Positions 13,709 through 16,486 of a stretch of DNA of 16,486 nucleotides are shown piece by piece. The position numbers were made by a program, and so were the translations under genes. This DNA comes from an uncultured archaeon (GTDB lineage Archaea; Aenigmatarchaeota; Aenigmatarchaeia; CG10238-14): positions 1 to 16,486 of the forward strand of contig CAYMPD010000023.1 of the NCBI GenBank assembly GCA_964392445.1, read 5' to 3'. Positions within the stretch are counted from its first letter, which is position 1, and every line of letters starts with the position of its first letter. A model generated the notes under the pieces. It worked only from the letters and a program-made list of their open reading frames with translations, did no database searches and was not told the DNA's origin.

Positions 13709-16486
13709 TTAACTCTTCTTCTCGATTGTTTTTATCTTATTTTCTACAGATTCCAGGTAAAGTCCTGCCATTCTCATCTGACCTTCTTTCATTTTCTCTT
13801 TTGCTAGTTTGACTTCAACCTCCATATCATAAGTATCTACTTTTCTTTCTCTTAATTCTGATATCTTGGCTTCTATTTCTTCCAATCTTTTCTCAGAGTT
13901 AATTATTTGTTCCATTTCTTGATCACTTATTTCTGATGTTTGATGTAGTAGTGGTCTGAAGGAAATAAAGTAAGGTTTACCATCATTATATTCGGGGTTA
14001 TGAACTAAAGATGTACCTATTGTAAGTTTTGGTAAAGTTTTTGAATATTCTTCACCATATTCCTTCCTAACTCTGTTAATATCTCCACTATATTTGGTTC
14101 TTAAGAGGACTTCCGTACCAACATTAGTTCTTATAGCTGCACGGAAATCTAAAAGTACCTGGGATATCATGATTAAACCAATACCCCATTTACGGAATTC
14201 ACGGGCACCTTTTTCCAGAGAAACATATCCTCCTTTACCCCCGTACTTAGGTAATAATCTATGGACCTCATCAAAAACAACAAGTAATTTTAATTTTTGT
14301 GAAGCTGGCCAGTCAACCTCAAAGAATGAATCAATCGTATTTCTTACAAATTTATCTAACTCTGAGGAATTTAACTTTTGGAGCCCAAAAACTGTTATTT
14401 CACCGGGCTTAATATGTTCCTGAATATTTAATTTCATTTCTGGGTTATCTACAACAATAATGTTTGTTTTGAATGATCTGGCATCTGTTGGTTTCATTCC
14501 GAATTTAGAATATAATGATAACATTCTTTTGTCTTTTGATTGACGAGCAAATCCAGACCATTGGAATGTTGGGTCAAACACAATAACAGGTAAACCTTTT
14601 TTCAAAAGTTCTTCTGCAATTATTTGTGAGGAAACACTCTTTCCAGAACCTGTTGCCCCTGCAGCAAGCATGTGAACTTGTAATTTATCCATATTAATAT
14701 ATGCATTAACATTGGTCTCTGCAACTTTTCCAACTAAAATTGATCTCTCACCTGCTTTTGGTAATTTTTTGAAGTCAACTGGGAAAACATATTTTCTTTC
14801 TTTTTCTTTCTTTTCTTTCCACTTTTTGTAAAACTTATTGCCAAAATATACCCCAGGTATAATTATAAACAATATCACATAGGTTATCCAACTGGAAGCA
14901 ATAGAATATAATATTCTAAAAACTAACGGTTGTTTAACAACCTCAAAAGTGTCTATTGAAGAAGCTGTTTTATTATCATATAAACTCACCGCCTCTATAA
15001 CATATTTTCCTAATGGTAAATCTTCTGGAATTTCCATGGTCTTAACATAAGAAACCGTGGTCTCAACAGCAAAAGTCTCTTGTTTTTTACTAAATAACTC
15101 GTCTGTTTCTGCATCTCTAATAGAATATGTGTTTGTAATATCAACTTTCTTGGTTTGACCTAAATTATAAACATCTACCTTGAACCTTAAAACATTGTCA
15201 GGAGATACTGTTTTTGTTATTGTTTCAACTTTAACATCTAAGAGTGATTCTCTTTCTAATTCTACCTTTAATATTACACCTACCTTCTGTGTTCTATTCT
15301 TCTTATCTATCATCAGAATATTGCCTGTATAAACTCCAACTATCGTATTTTCAAGTGTTGAGAATTTCACTTTAGTATATTTTGTGGATTTTTTCTCCAA
15401 ATCTATGCTCTCATCTTCAAATTCTATGAAATCCCATATTGCCCCCTCGGCTGAAAGCTGAACAGTAGTATTAATATCTTGGTTGTTTGTCACGCCAATT
15501 GAAGCTATTTGATATTCTCCTGGATGTAATGTTATCTCAATTAAATCTGTTGATGGTTGAATAGGAGATGGTTCTATTTTTTCGAGCGCTTTTTCAAGTT
15601 CTTCTTCAGATAATCCTCCTCCTCCTCCTCCTCCGCCAACCATGCCAGTACCTGTTCCAGTCCCTCCAGTTACATTTGAGGTTGGACAATCACTAGAACA
15701 GACAGAATTTGACTCCCCATAATCTGATTCACATTCACCATTACCACAGACAAATTTAGACGCTATATAAGCTGAAAAATTAGTTAGATTAATTGATACT
15801 TTATTATTAACTGAATCAACAACTGTATCGTTTAACCTAGCCCAGGAATAATCTAAACAATTAGGTGTTCCATTGATATCAAAAGACCAATCTTCACATT
15901 TGTATATAGCAATTAAACTCTCACTACTTACACTACTTGGATAATTGAAGGTTAAAGTCGCATTCTCAAAAGATATATTTGTATCAAAGAATATTCCAAC
16001 ATAAGGTGTATAAGCGCTTGGATTTAAGGTTACAGAATCTGTATCAAACCCATAGGCATCAAGGCTATCCAGATTATCCTGATTAATATTTGCATCATTA
16101 AGTTCAATTGTGCTATTGCTTGTGTTTATTTCTATATCATATGTTCTTGGGTGAATTTCTTTTTCATAATATCCGGTAGTTGCGTTTGTAGAGAAATTCA
16201 ATATTTGGTCGTTATTATCAGGTCTTTTAAAAACAAAATCTGTTCCCCAAACTGTTCCAGCGGGATCTGAAATTGTTCCATTAAATTTGTAAGTAGTGTT
16301 AGATCTAACTTCAAACCAACCATTATCTGTATTGTAATTGCCAGAAGTATCGTTTGCGTAAATAACGAAATCATAATCACCTACTAGAGAAGTTCCAGTT
16401 ATAGTTGAAGTCCAAAGATTAGAAACATTGTCCATTGTTGTATTTATTTTTGTTGAGTTAAGATATTCAATCTCTAATAGAACTGT
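13709..16486 (-). CDS. Surface protein fused via one TM helix to a cytoplasmic HerA/VirB4/FtsK-superfamily (DUF87-type) ATPase; 5'-truncated by the window
   Basis: The frame stays open from 16486 (TVLLEIEYLNSTKINTT-M), so 16435 is not the true start. The N-terminal part is sequon-rich and Ig-like, with a CGNGxCE..GE....C..DC module and a Gly8 linker. TM at about 14840-14915; Walker A AGATGSGKS at 14636-14662; Walker B LLVVFDEVH at 14261-14287; RKWG Arg-finger-like motif; I.ISQ motif. Confidence 0.88.
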   Translation of the reverse strand, partial: TVLLEIEYLNSTKINTTMDNVSNLWTSTITGTSLVGDYDFVIYANDTSGNYNTDNGWFEVRSNTTYKFNGTISDPAGTVWGTDFVFKRPDNNDQILNFSTNATTGYYEKEIHPRTYDIEINTSNSTIELNDANINQDNLDSLDAYGFDTDSVTLNPSAYTPYVGIFFDTNISFENATLTFNYPSSVSSESLIAIYKCEDWSFDINGTPNCLDYSWARLNDTVVDSVNNKVSINLTNFSAYIASKFVCGNGECESDYGESNSVCSSDCPTSNVTGGTGTGTGMVGGGGGGGGLSEEELEKALEKIEPSPIQPSTDLIEITLHPGEYQIASIGVTNNQDINTTVQLSAEGAIWDFIEFEDESIDLEKKSTKYTKVKFSTLENTIVGVYTGNILMIDKKNRTQKVGVILKVELERESLLDVKVETITKTVSPDNVLRFKVDVYNLGQTKKVDITNTYSIRDAETDELFSKKQETFAVETTVSYVKTMEIPEDLPLGKYVIEAVSLYDNKTASSIDTFEVVKQPLVFRILYSIASSWITYVILFIIIPGVYFGNKFYKKWKEKKEKERKYVFPVDFKKLPKAGERSILVGKVAETNVNAYINMDKLQVHMLAAGATGSGKSVSSQIIAEELLKKGLPVIVFDPTFQWSGFARQSKDKRMLSLYSKFGMKPTDARSFKTNIIVVDNPEMKLNIQEHIKPGEITVFGLQKLNSSELDKFVRNTIDSFFEVDWPASQKLKLLVVFDEVHRLLPKYGGKGGYVSLEKGAREFRKWGIGLIMISQVLLDFRAAIRTNVGTEVLLRTKYSGDINRVRKEYGEEYSKTLPKLTIGTSLVHNPEYNDGKPYFISFRPLLHQTSEISDQEMEQIINSEKRLEEIEAKISELRERKVDTYDMEVEVKLAKEKMKEGQMRMAGLYLESVENKIKTIEKKS
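15614..15637 (-). repeat. GGC(GGA)7 trinucleotide run encoding a Gly8 linker
   Basis: The + strand has (tcc)7 at 15614-15634 followed by gcc; translation MVGGGGGGGGLS. Confidence 0.9.

What the first reader, a model, noticed from the sequence alone, without database searches (positions are those of the whole stretch)
13709..16486. Single polypeptide joining a large extracellular Ig-like region to a cytoplasmic HerA/VirB4-type ATPase
Seen: one frame runs uninterrupted from the sequon-rich extracellular domains through a TM helix (about 14840-14915) and a basic stop-transfer stretch (KKWKEKKEKERK) into an ATPase with intact Walker A, Walker B and RKWG motifs. Only about 120 aa separate Walker A from Walker B. 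Known: characterised HerA, VirB4, TrwB, CedB and FtsK proteins do not carry a large N-terminal ectodomain, and many have a long helical insertion between the Walker motifs. Inference: ATPase hexamerisation would force a ring of ectodomains, giving a self-contained channel/motor or a receptor-like ATPase that couples host binding to ATP hydrolysis. Similar fusions may exist in DPANN annotations as DUF87 proteins, but I know of no functional description.
Basis: partly seen in the sequence, partly recalled or inferred. Interest (0 to 1): 0.76.

Follow-up and report, generated by a model that had tools for sequence, protein, structure and literature searches.

The report
Tail of a SPEARE-type giant adhesin-ATPase
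The fusion of a sugar-coated surface domain to an internal HerA-like ATP motor is real. It is the last 15% of a roughly 6,090-residue "SPEARE"-type giant surface protein, a design already published for tiny symbiotic (DPANN) archaea and still untested in function.

Summary
The minus-strand frame 13709-16486 runs without a stop through a sequon-rich ectodomain, one membrane helix, a basic stop-transfer stretch and an intact HerA/FtsK-superfamily ATPase.

The frame is cut by the contig end. It joins contig C1 in frame through a 17-nt overlap, which gives one gene of about 6,090 codons with an N-terminal signal peptide.

Close homologues of the ATPase (about 45-60% identity) end open frames of 550 to 14,525 residues. 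They occur in Aenigmatarchaeota, Nanohalarchaeota, Micrarchaeota, Woesearchaeota and other DPANN lineages, so the fusion is not an assembly artefact.

The architecture is already published as the SPEARE or "giant membrane-anchored" proteins (PMC6642349, PMC10266531). The first of these papers names Aenigmarchaeota relatives. This scan has also reached the same reading on at least seven other genomes.

The ATPase is closest to HerA by sequence profile and by fold. It lacks HerA's HAS barrel and helical insert, and it reaches no curated HerA, VirB4, CedD or FtsK cut-off.

A cytoplasmic coiled-coil partner gene is conserved directly downstream in most loci.

I infer, without proof, that the protein is a host-contact fibre whose cytoplasmic ring motor acts as a membrane-anchored translocase or coupling ATPase.

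Verdict: a new member of a known kind, of modest interest.

The parts
13709..16486 (-). Last 925 codons plus stop of a SPEARE-type giant gene. The gene continues on contig C1, for about 6,090 codons in all.
14927..16486 (-). Extracellular part held in the window (residues 1-520). It carries 20 sequons, 6 cysteines, a Cys-rich CGNGECE...SSDCP module and a Gly-rich linker.
14897..15601 (-). Two membrane-proximal Ig/FnIII-like beta sandwiches (residues 296-530).
   Evidence: AF2 mean pLDDT 89.8. Foldseek top hits are RbmA, WxLIP, CEP192 SPD-2 and FnIII-like modules.
14843..14926 (-). Single transmembrane helix, followed by the basic stretch KKWKEKKEKERK at 14801-14836.
   Evidence: A helix lies 74-102 residues before Walker A in most of the homologues where both could be located.
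13925..14800 (-). Cytoplasmic HerA/FtsK-superfamily ATPase core. It contains the juxtamembrane motif YVFPVDFKKLPK, Walker A (14636-14659), Walker B (14267-14287), RKWG (14183-14194) and the sensor motif ISQV.
   Evidence: Pfam DUF87, E 5e-12. Family-invariant residues. Fold closest to HerA 4d2i.
13712..13924 (-). C-terminal helical tail (three long helices). It carries the family's conserved tail motif DTYDxExELNLAKDKLKxGxFxMAExYLESV; the window's own copy reads DTYDMEVEVKLAKEKMKEGQMRMAGLYLESV.
10462..12207 (-). 581-residue K/E-rich cytoplasmic coiled-coil protein, the conserved partner of the ATPase gene. Here it is separated from the ATPase gene by three inserted genes.
   Evidence: phmmer E down to 4e-47 against the ORFs directly downstream of the ATPase in named DPANN loci. 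66 of 78 such ORFs are homologous to this protein or to the C7 partner, and none has a transmembrane segment.
6125..10417 (-). Second large surface protein, 1,430 residues. It has a signal peptide, MG2/Big_7/NEW3 Ig-like repeats shared with the giant's ectodomain, a C-terminal transmembrane helix and a short cytoplasmic SHOCT-like tail.
   Evidence: Similar proteins of about 1,950-1,990 residues lie near the giant gene in 2 of 3 loci read in full.
12240..13678 (-). Three genes inserted between the ATPase gene and its partner: two small multi-pass membrane proteins (13319-13678 and 13020-13322) and a membrane-anchored transglutaminase-core protein (12240-13010).
   Evidence: The transglutaminase-like gene was found in 6 of 61 genomes of the order and never beside the giant gene, so it is local rather than part of the conserved set.

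Best explanation
The window holds the C-terminal end of a roughly 6,090-residue SPEARE-type giant surface protein of an Aenigmatarchaeota (DPANN) archaeon.

Shown here:
- A Sec-type signal peptide starts the joined gene.
- About 5,600 residues of heavily N-glycosylatable adhesion-type modules follow (FG-GAP, discoidin-like, NEW3, filamin and Ig-like).
- One membrane helix comes next.
- A compact cytoplasmic HerA/FtsK-superfamily ATPase follows, with every catalytic motif intact and far better conserved than the ectodomain.
- The protein ends in a helical tail.
- A cytoplasmic coiled-coil partner gene travels with the ATPase gene.

Inferred:
- The fibre binds the host cell.
- The ATPase assembles into a ring at the membrane, like its superfamily relatives.
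- Together with the coiled-coil partner, the ring works as a membrane-anchored translocation or coupling motor for DNA or another polymer at the contact site. The working models are the membrane-bound superfamily members CedD, VirD4 and FtsK.
For: - Identity of the family: homologues at 45-60% identity in the ATPase end open frames of up to 14,525 residues. They occur in 76 of 151 Aenigmatarchaeota genomes and in 28 of 42 genomes of a Nanohalarchaeota-labelled phylum, where frames reach 12,145 residues.
- Named relatives: a protein of Candidatus Nanohaloarchaeota QJJ-7 (P0168) matches at 46% identity over 99% of the domain. Named loci come from Aenigmat-, Micr-, Woese-, Parv-, Nano- and Nanohalarchaeota.
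- Published architecture matches point by point: PMC6642349 and PMC10266531.
- Topology: signal peptide in the joined gene, 287 sequons before the helix against 1 after it, cysteines only outside, basic residues inside.
- Active motor: Walker A, Walker B, the sensor Gln and the RKWG Arg are invariant across 14 family members.
- Closest fold and closest sequence profile are both the DNA translocase HerA.
- The NCBIfam model for CedD matches all 14 family members, though weakly. CedD is a membrane-bound HerA-FtsK ATPase that is essential for DNA import (PMC11823120).
- Partner gene conserved directly downstream.
Against: - No substrate, pore or ring was shown here.
- A hexamer would contribute only six single-pass helices, and no conserved polytopic channel partner was found. 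The two small membrane proteins in this window were not found directly downstream in the three relatives read in full.
- Matches to CedD, VirB4, TraD and FtsK models are short, centred on the P-loop, and far below the curated cut-offs.
- HerA-type rings also serve as scaffolds in defence systems. Sir2-HerA and DUF4297-HerA complexes are among the best fold hits.
- Proteomics in PMC6642349 suggests that the ectodomain and the cytoplasmic part may be separated after synthesis.
Confidence: 0.5

Rival explanations
1. The ATPase is a scaffold or mechanical anchor rather than a translocase. The ring bundles several giant fibres. With the coiled-coil partner, it positions, tensions or remodels the adhesin at the contact site. 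ATP hydrolysis then controls assembly or signalling instead of moving a polymer.
For: - The conserved partner is a long soluble coiled-coil protein with no transmembrane segment.
- The second surface protein has a SHOCT-like cytoplasmic tail, and many partners carry the same kind of motif. This fits a cytoplasmic assembly platform.
- MinD/ParA-like genes lie nearby in all three loci read in full.
- HerA rings act as scaffolds in Sir2-HerA and DUF4297-HerA complexes, which are among the top fold hits.
- There is only one helix per subunit and no conserved channel protein.
Against: - The catalytic motifs are strictly invariant, and the domain is the best conserved part of the protein. This points to an active motor.
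- The nearest characterised relatives move DNA.
Confidence: 0.28
2. The ATPase serves the giant protein itself. It could help export, fold, extract or turn over its own enormous ectodomain, or release it by processing.
For: - The motor is fused in cis to proteins of 550 to 14,525 residues.
- PMC6642349 found the ectodomain and the cytoplasmic part in different size fractions.
Against: - The joined gene has an ordinary N-terminal signal peptide, so Sec export is sufficient.
- The motor is made last, after the ectodomain has left the ribosome.
- Family members with ectodomains of only about 130 residues keep the same ATPase.
Confidence: 0.1
3. The cytoplasmic part is a type III restriction-like enzyme that degrades incoming DNA. 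This was the original SPEARE reading.
For: - Pfam ResIII matches the region weakly, at E 3e-5 to 6e-6.
- PMC6642349 proposes this reading.
Against: - DUF87 and HerA_C score better over the same residues.
- No nuclease domain was found.
- The fold and PDB profile hits are HerA, TcpA and VirB4, not SF2 helicases.
- PMC10266531 rejects this reading.
Confidence: 0.04
4. The fusion is an assembly or gene-calling artefact that joins two separate genes.
For: - The gene lies at a contig end.
- Contig C1 starts with an adapter remnant.
Against: - The ectodomain, helix and ATPase lie inside one contig with no stop.
- The same junction recurs in hundreds of independent assemblies across phyla, with a helix at a constant distance from Walker A in most homologues.
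Confidence: 0.01

Closest known systems
SPEARE proteins, also called giant membrane-anchored extracellular proteins, of Nanohaloarchaeota. Examples are Ca. Nanohaloarchaeum antarcticus NAR1_1133 (5,998 aa), Ca. Nanopetramus SG9 (8,553 aa), SVXNc_0300 (9,409 aa) and BNXNv_0298 (8,880 aa). Sources: PMC6642349 and PMC10266531.
   Same: - The order of parts is the same: giant extracytoplasmic adhesion region, one transmembrane helix near the C terminus, a conserved cytoplasmic P-loop domain that also gives a ResIII hit, and a C-terminal coiled coil.
- The size class is the same, about 6,090 residues.
- Homologues at 42-55% identity end giant frames in genomes of the Nanohalarchaeota phylum.
- PMC6642349 itself reports similar sequences in Aenigmarchaeota.
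   Different: - This is a different phylum and a different ectodomain module set. FG-GAP, DUF2341, discoidin-like, NEW3 and filamin were found here. No laminin-G, protease or toxin-like domain was found at E < 0.001.
- The conserved coiled-coil partner is not described in the two papers I read.
HerA, the archaeal HerA-NurA end-resection DNA translocase (PDB 4d2i, 9x1l)
   Same: - It is the best match by PDB sequence profile (E 3e-12) and by fold (Foldseek E 3.5e-10).
- It shares the Pfam DUF87 and HerA_C core, Walker A and B, and the RK(F/W)G-GL-SQ motif.
   Different: - There is no HAS-barrel N-domain and no helical insert between the Walker motifs (49 residues here against 121 in HerA).
- There is no NurA neighbour.
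- The NCBIfam HerA models score 43-47 bits against cut-offs of 800-970.
- The genome has its own true HerA next to genes that look like Mre11 and Rad50, on C1.
- This protein is membrane-anchored; HerA is soluble.
CedD and CedB of the crenarchaeal Ced DNA-import system, and bacterial VirD4/TrwB/TcpA coupling proteins and FtsK
   Same: - All are HerA-FtsK-superfamily ATPases held at the membrane by N-terminal helices with the motor in the cytoplasm.
- CedD is essential for DNA import (PMC11823120).
- The NCBIfam CedD model hits all 14 family members (best E 3e-15).
- TcpA and VirB4 are among the top fold hits.
   Different: - The matches cover only the P-loop region, at 45 bits against a cut-off of 600.
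- No CedA, VirB6 or VirB2-type partners were seen.
- None of these proteins has a large ectodomain.
- The VirB4 N-domain and the FtsK gamma domain are absent.

Membership tests
SPEARE / giant membrane-anchored surface proteins of DPANN archaea | Very long, mostly extracytoplasmic N-terminal region built of adhesion-type domains | tested here: met
   The joined gene has about 5,600 extracellular residues and 287 sequons. Pfam finds FG-GAP, DUF2341, discoidin-like, NEW3 and filamin domains. Two Ig/FnIII-like sandwiches sit next to the membrane.
SPEARE / giant membrane-anchored surface proteins of DPANN archaea | Single transmembrane helix near the C terminus, with the C-terminal region in the cytoplasm | tested here: met
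   One helix lies at residues 521-548 of the window ORF. Basic residues follow it, and sequons and cysteines occur only before it.
SPEARE / giant membrane-anchored surface proteins of DPANN archaea | Conserved cytoplasmic P-loop domain (read as ResIII by Hamm et al. and as VirB4/TraG-like ATPase by Reva et al.) that is homologous to the nanohaloarchaeal one | tested here: met
   The region gives ResIII and DUF87 hits. It matches a Nanohaloarchaeota QJJ-7 protein at 46% identity over 99% of the domain. It matches giant frames in 28 of 42 genomes of that phylum at 42-55% identity. The named SPEARE records themselves could not be fetched.
SPEARE / giant membrane-anchored surface proteins of DPANN archaea | Coiled-coil or helical tail after the ATPase | tested here: met
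   Three long helices at residues 855-924, carrying a motif conserved across the family.
SPEARE / giant membrane-anchored surface proteins of DPANN archaea | Serine protease, laminin-G and toxin-like domains (the original definition, disputed by PMC10266531) | tested here: not met
   None was found by Pfam at E < 0.001 in the joined protein. Reva et al. argue that these domains are not real in the type proteins either.
HerA (DSB-repair helicase) | Score over the curated equivalog cut-off, an N-terminal HAS barrel and a helical insert | tested here: not met
   Scores are 43-47 bits against cut-offs of 800-970. Only about 60 residues lie between the helix and Walker A. The insert is absent.
HerA (DSB-repair helicase) | NurA/Mre11/Rad50 gene context | tested here: not met
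   The neighbours are membrane proteins and a coiled-coil protein. The genome's 503-residue HerA lies on C1 next to ORFs whose N-terminal sequences look like Rad50 and Mre11; this was read by eye and not searched.
VirB4 / type IV secretion ATPases | CagE_TrbE_VirB N-domain, family-level score and T4SS partner genes | tested here: not met
   There is no PF03135 hit. TraC scores 27-29 bits against a cut-off of 567. No VirB6- or VirB2-like neighbours are conserved.
CedD / VirD4-type coupling ATPases | Family-level score, plus N-terminal membrane anchor and cytoplasmic ATPase | tested here: inconclusive
   The membrane anchor followed by the motor is shared. The CedD model hits all 14 family members, but only at 45 bits against a cut-off of 600 and only over the P-loop region. 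TrwB_AAD_bind and T4SS-DNA_transf hit 5 and 8 of the 14 members weakly.
FtsK/SpoIIIE | Pfam FtsK_SpoIIIE over the gathering score, and a gamma domain | tested here: not met
   Scores are 18.6-20.3 bits against the gathering score of 24. FtsK scores E 0.0098 in the PDB profile search. No gamma or wHTH domain is present.

The most novel reading that the evidence does not exclude
The giant adhesin-ATPase, its conserved cytoplasmic coiled-coil partner and the second transmembrane surface protein with a SHOCT-like tail together form an undescribed DPANN contact machine. In this reading, the HerA-like ring pulls DNA or another host polymer across the symbiont membrane at the attachment site. That would be a trans-envelope transfer system unrelated in its parts to type IV secretion or to Ced.
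Probability: 0.25. Interest if true: 0.8.

Novelty: new member of a known kind. Interest (0 to 1): 0.3.

Why it matters
DPANN archaea depend on host cells, and how they take material from their hosts is an open question. SPEARE-type proteins are the largest and among the most conserved surface features of these organisms. The largest frame seen here spans about 43.6 kb, in a genome listed at about 1.1 Mb.

This window adds one more Aenigmatarchaeota example and no new principle. What remains worthwhile is the untested function of a motor ATPase welded to an adhesin, and of its conserved coiled-coil partner.

Tried and rejected
I read gene neighbourhoods through the genome search, the fetch from genomes and the search for related loci instead.
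- **Literature searches that found nothing relevant.** These were DPANN + HerA + transmembrane, DUF87 + transglutaminase, Aenigmarchaeota + DUF87, and the FtsK-HerA superfamily paper.
- **The predicted archaeal secretion system of Makarova et al. 2015** (PMC5898192) is built around MoxR and vWA proteins. It is a different system.
- **The transglutaminase-like gene.** I tested whether it could be a conserved processing partner. It was found in 6 of 61 genomes and never beside the giant gene, so I rejected the idea.
- **A tree against named HerA, VirB4, CedB, TraD and FtsK sequences** was not built. I used profile and fold rankings instead.
- **Matching SVXNc_0300 (9,409 aa) or BNXNv_0298 (8,880 aa) by frame length.** No exact match appeared among the Nanohalarchaeota genomes. 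The nearest frames were 9,591 and 8,146 residues.
- **Hexamer modelling and pore electrostatics** could not be done. Only monomer prediction is offered and coordinates are not returned.
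Full report
**Observation**

The window is the whole of contig C23 of a 1.2-Mb, 54-contig genome. Earlier notes of this scan place the genome in the Aenigmatarchaeota.

On the minus strand, one frame runs from the contig end (16486) to a stop at 13709. 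It is 925 codons long. A script located the following features:
- One hydrophobic helix at residues about 521-548 (window 14843-14926).
- The basic stretch KKWKEKKEKERK directly after the helix.
- Walker A, GATGSGKS, at residue 610.
- Walker B, LLVVFDE, at residue 734.
- RKWG at residue 765.

Twenty NxS/T sequons lie before the helix, against 8.6 expected from composition. One sequon lies after it. All six cysteines are on the N-terminal side.

Pfam gives DUF87 (HerA central domain, E 5e-12) and HerA_C. ResIII and FtsK_SpoIIIE match more weakly over the same residues.

**The frame is only the tail of the gene**

I searched 151 genomes of the same phylum with the helix-plus-ATPase part (P0122). 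It hit 76 genomes at E < 1e-30, nearly always at the C-terminal end of very long open frames: 14,526, 14,236, 13,519, 11,435, 11,262 residues and so on. A second paralogue class has frames of about 2,200-3,000 residues.

I fetched three of these loci and confirmed single uninterrupted ORFs of 11,259, 14,525 and 11,409 residues, each ending in the ATPase.

A tblastn search with these giants against the window's own genome gave a clear order. The start of contig C1 aligns to the residues just before those that C23 aligns to. For the G006 giant, C1 covers residues 9304-10319 and C23 covers 10337-11259.

C1 begins with 15 nt of Illumina adapter. Its next 17 nt are identical to the last 17 nt of C23. 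The join keeps the reading frame and gives 6,094 stop-free codons.

Counted from MQLPKF, the protein has 6,090 residues. It starts with a signal-peptide-like sequence and carries 287 sequons, only one of them after the membrane helix.

Pfam finds these domains in the C1 part: FG-GAP repeats, DUF2341, a discoidin-like domain (DUF7402), NEW3 and filamin repeats. No enzyme domain appears at E < 0.001.

Residues 296-530 of the window ORF, folded with an alignment, give two beta sandwiches (mean pLDDT 89.8). The best structural matches are tandem FnIII/Ig-like proteins such as RbmA, WxLIP and CEP192 SPD-2.

**The fusion is conserved, not an artefact**

The 5.8-billion-protein search returned 668 relatives of near length and 282 longer ones. 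Most are named DUF87 proteins of Aenigmarchaeota, Micrarchaeota, Woesearchaeota, Nanoarchaeota and one Nanohaloarchaeota archaeon.

Most of the 120 listed near-length relatives follow one plan:
- an N-terminal hydrophobic segment, where the protein is complete;
- an ectodomain of 130 to more than 1,000 residues that carries the sequons;
- a helix 74-102 residues before Walker A;
- in most, about 313 residues after Walker A; a minority carry a C-terminal extension.

In some relatives the crude script found no helix or no Walker A.

A scan of species-representative genomes found at least 578 encoding stretches. The named records include Aenigmat-, Micr-, Parv-, Woese-, Nano- and Nanohalarchaeota.

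In an alignment of 14 ATPase parts, mean column identity is 49%. The invariant features are Walker A, DEVHRLL, EFRKWG, SQV, a juxtamembrane Y...LP motif and a helical-tail motif. The cytoplasmic part is much better conserved than the ectodomain.

**What is already known**

Hamm et al. 2019 (PMC6642349) defined the SPEARE proteins of Nanohaloarchaeota, which reach 8,553 residues. These proteins are mostly extracytoplasmic, with a transmembrane domain towards the C terminus. Their most conserved region is the intracellular one, which the authors read as a type III restriction enzyme domain.

The same paper reports "similar sequences" in Woesearchaeota, Aenigmarchaeota, Micrarchaeota and Altiarchaeales. 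It also detected the protein by proteomics, with the ectodomain and the cytoplasmic part in different size fractions.

Reva et al. 2023 (PMC10266531) re-analysed the family and described about 75 Ig-like domains, a transmembrane domain, a cytosolic VirB4/TraG-like ATPase and a terminal coiled coil. They proposed host binding plus type-IV-like effector secretion.

That is the architecture of this gene. I tested the link in three ways:
- The ResIII hit falls on the same residues.
- A Nanohaloarchaeota QJJ-7 protein matches at 46% identity over 99% of the domain.
- 28 of 42 genomes of the phylum of a Nanohalarchaeota-labelled MAG match at 42-55% identity, again at the end of frames of up to 12,145 residues.

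The named type proteins themselves could not be fetched.

This scan has reached the same reading on at least seven other genomes and has also noted the partner genes. I reached it independently through the literature before reading those notes.

**What kind of ATPase it is**

The AF2 model of the helix-plus-ATPase part has mean pLDDT 80.6. Foldseek ranks the hits as follows:

| Rank group | Structure | E-value |
|---|---|---|
| 1 | Sulfolobus HerA (4d2i) | 3.5e-10 |
| 2 | Thermococcus HerA-NurA, Sir2-HerA defence complexes | about 5e-9 to 3e-7 |
| 3 | Coupling protein TcpA | 2.6e-7 |
| 4 | VirB4 | 5.8e-7 |

A sequence profile against the PDB gives HerA at 3e-12 and FtsK at only 0.0098. No VirB4 or TrwB chain appears at E ≤ 0.01.

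NCBIfam models for CedD and HerA hit all 14 aligned members. The scores are 45-47 bits against cut-offs of 600-800, and the matches lie mainly over the P-loop.

The domain starts about 60 residues after the helix, so it has no HAS barrel. It also lacks HerA's helical insert. The genome has a separate, ordinary HerA next to genes that look like Mre11 and Rad50 on C1.

The domain is therefore a distinct, compact clade of the HerA-FtsK superfamily. It is nearest to HerA and is a member of none of the named families. "VirB4/TraG-like" and "ResIII" are looser labels than the evidence allows.

**Surroundings**

In 80 named loci, the ATPase gene is followed within about -40 to +125 nt by a K/E-rich ORF of roughly 400-940 residues in most cases. 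Of 78 such ORFs, 66 are homologous to the window's 581-residue coiled-coil protein (10462-12207) or to the 775-residue one behind the paralogue on C7. The E-values reach 4e-47, and none of the 66 has a transmembrane segment.

In this window, three genes are inserted between the ATPase gene and its partner: two small polytopic membrane proteins and a membrane-anchored transglutaminase-core protein. The transglutaminase-like gene occurs in only 6 of 61 genomes of the order and never beside the giant gene, so it is local.

Next in the window comes a 1,430-residue surface protein. It has Ig-like repeats shared with the giant, a C-terminal helix and a SHOCT-like cytoplasmic tail. Comparable proteins lie near the giant gene in two of the three loci read in full.

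The genome's second SPEARE-type gene (C7, 42% identity) is also cut at a contig end. It probably continues on C35, for about 2,210 residues in all, which matches the paralogue class of about 2,200 residues in sister genomes.

The rest of the window (1-5000) holds housekeeping genes.

**Mechanism**

These points are shown:
- The topology is N-terminus outside, C-terminus inside.
- The ectodomain is built of adhesion-type modules.
- The superfamily motor is intact and strongly conserved.
- A soluble coiled-coil partner is conserved next to it.

The rest is inferred. Like its relatives, the ATPase probably forms a ring at the membrane. The ring would act at the host contact made by the fibre.

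I favour a translocase or coupling role for two reasons. The nearest characterised proteins move DNA. Membrane-anchored superfamily members (CedD, VirD4, FtsK) do so at membranes, and CedD is essential for DNA import (PMC11823120).

Three points weigh against this role. There is only one helix per subunit. No conserved channel protein was found. HerA rings are known to act as scaffolds. A scaffold or mechanical role with the coiled-coil partner is therefore a serious rival.

The restriction-enzyme reading and the artefact reading are effectively excluded.

**Verdict**

This is a new Aenigmatarchaeota member of the published SPEARE-type family, and the window holds only its tail. Interest is modest (0.3), because the design is known and this scan has met it repeatedly. 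The function of the family remains an open question.

Noticed in passing
G000 contig C1:1-15 (L139), not in the window: Contig C1 starts with ACGCTCTTCCGATCT, an Illumina adapter remnant. The true sequence starts at position 16 and overlaps the end of the window's contig by 17 nt.
   Followed up: yes
G095:C3:21543-65120 (L039-L041; public contig CAYFWU010000003.1, L051): A single uninterrupted ORF of 14,525 codons ends in the same ATPase. This is longer than the 9,409-residue protein that PMC10266531 calls the largest among cultivated archaea. Its called start includes a wHTH-like segment that is a separate upstream gene in other genomes.
   Followed up: partly
G000 C7:42861-44852 (L002) and C35:~1800-6442 (L003): A second SPEARE-type paralogue (42% identity) is also cut at a contig end. 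A 1,547-residue frame running off the end of C35 matches the residues just upstream. Together they probably form one gene of about 2,210 codons, followed by a 775-residue coiled-coil partner that overlaps its stop.
   Followed up: partly
window 12240-13010 (-): A membrane-anchored transglutaminase-core (cysteine-protease fold) protein sits between the ATPase gene and its partner. It is sparse in the order (6 of 61 genomes) and is not linked to the giant gene elsewhere.
   Followed up: yes
window 13020-13678 (-): Two small multi-pass membrane proteins (119 and 100 residues) with no family match lie directly behind the ATPase gene. The three related loci read in full do not have them at that position. 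Their role is unknown.
   Followed up: partly
window 15670-15750 (-), residues about 247-290 of the ORF: A small Cys-rich module, CGNGECESDYGESNSVCSSDCP, is followed by a Gly-rich linker. The C7 paralogue has the same pair in reverse order (Gly-rich, then CGNGICEATENVDNCPEDCG). It looks like a conserved disulfide-bonded hinge ahead of the last Ig-like domains.
   Followed up: no
window 6125-10417 (-) and partner proteins in L045-L124: A SHOCT-like motif (h..h...Y..G.I....Y) occurs in the cytoplasmic tail of the 1,430-residue surface protein and in 60 of 66 coiled-coil partners. It occurs in only 2 of 1,184 ORFs of at least 100 residues in the window's own genome. It may be a shared docking module.
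   Followed up: partly
window 182-4971: These are housekeeping genes unrelated to the cluster: a xylose-isomerase-like TIM barrel, DUF1295, a pyrimidine-dimer glycosylase, TspO, RtcB and archease.
   Followed up: yes
G000 C1:16138-25769: An ordinary 503-residue HerA ORF sits close to ORFs that look like Rad50 and Mre11. This locus lies only about 3 kb from the 5' end of the giant gene. The nearness looks coincidental.
   Followed up: partly
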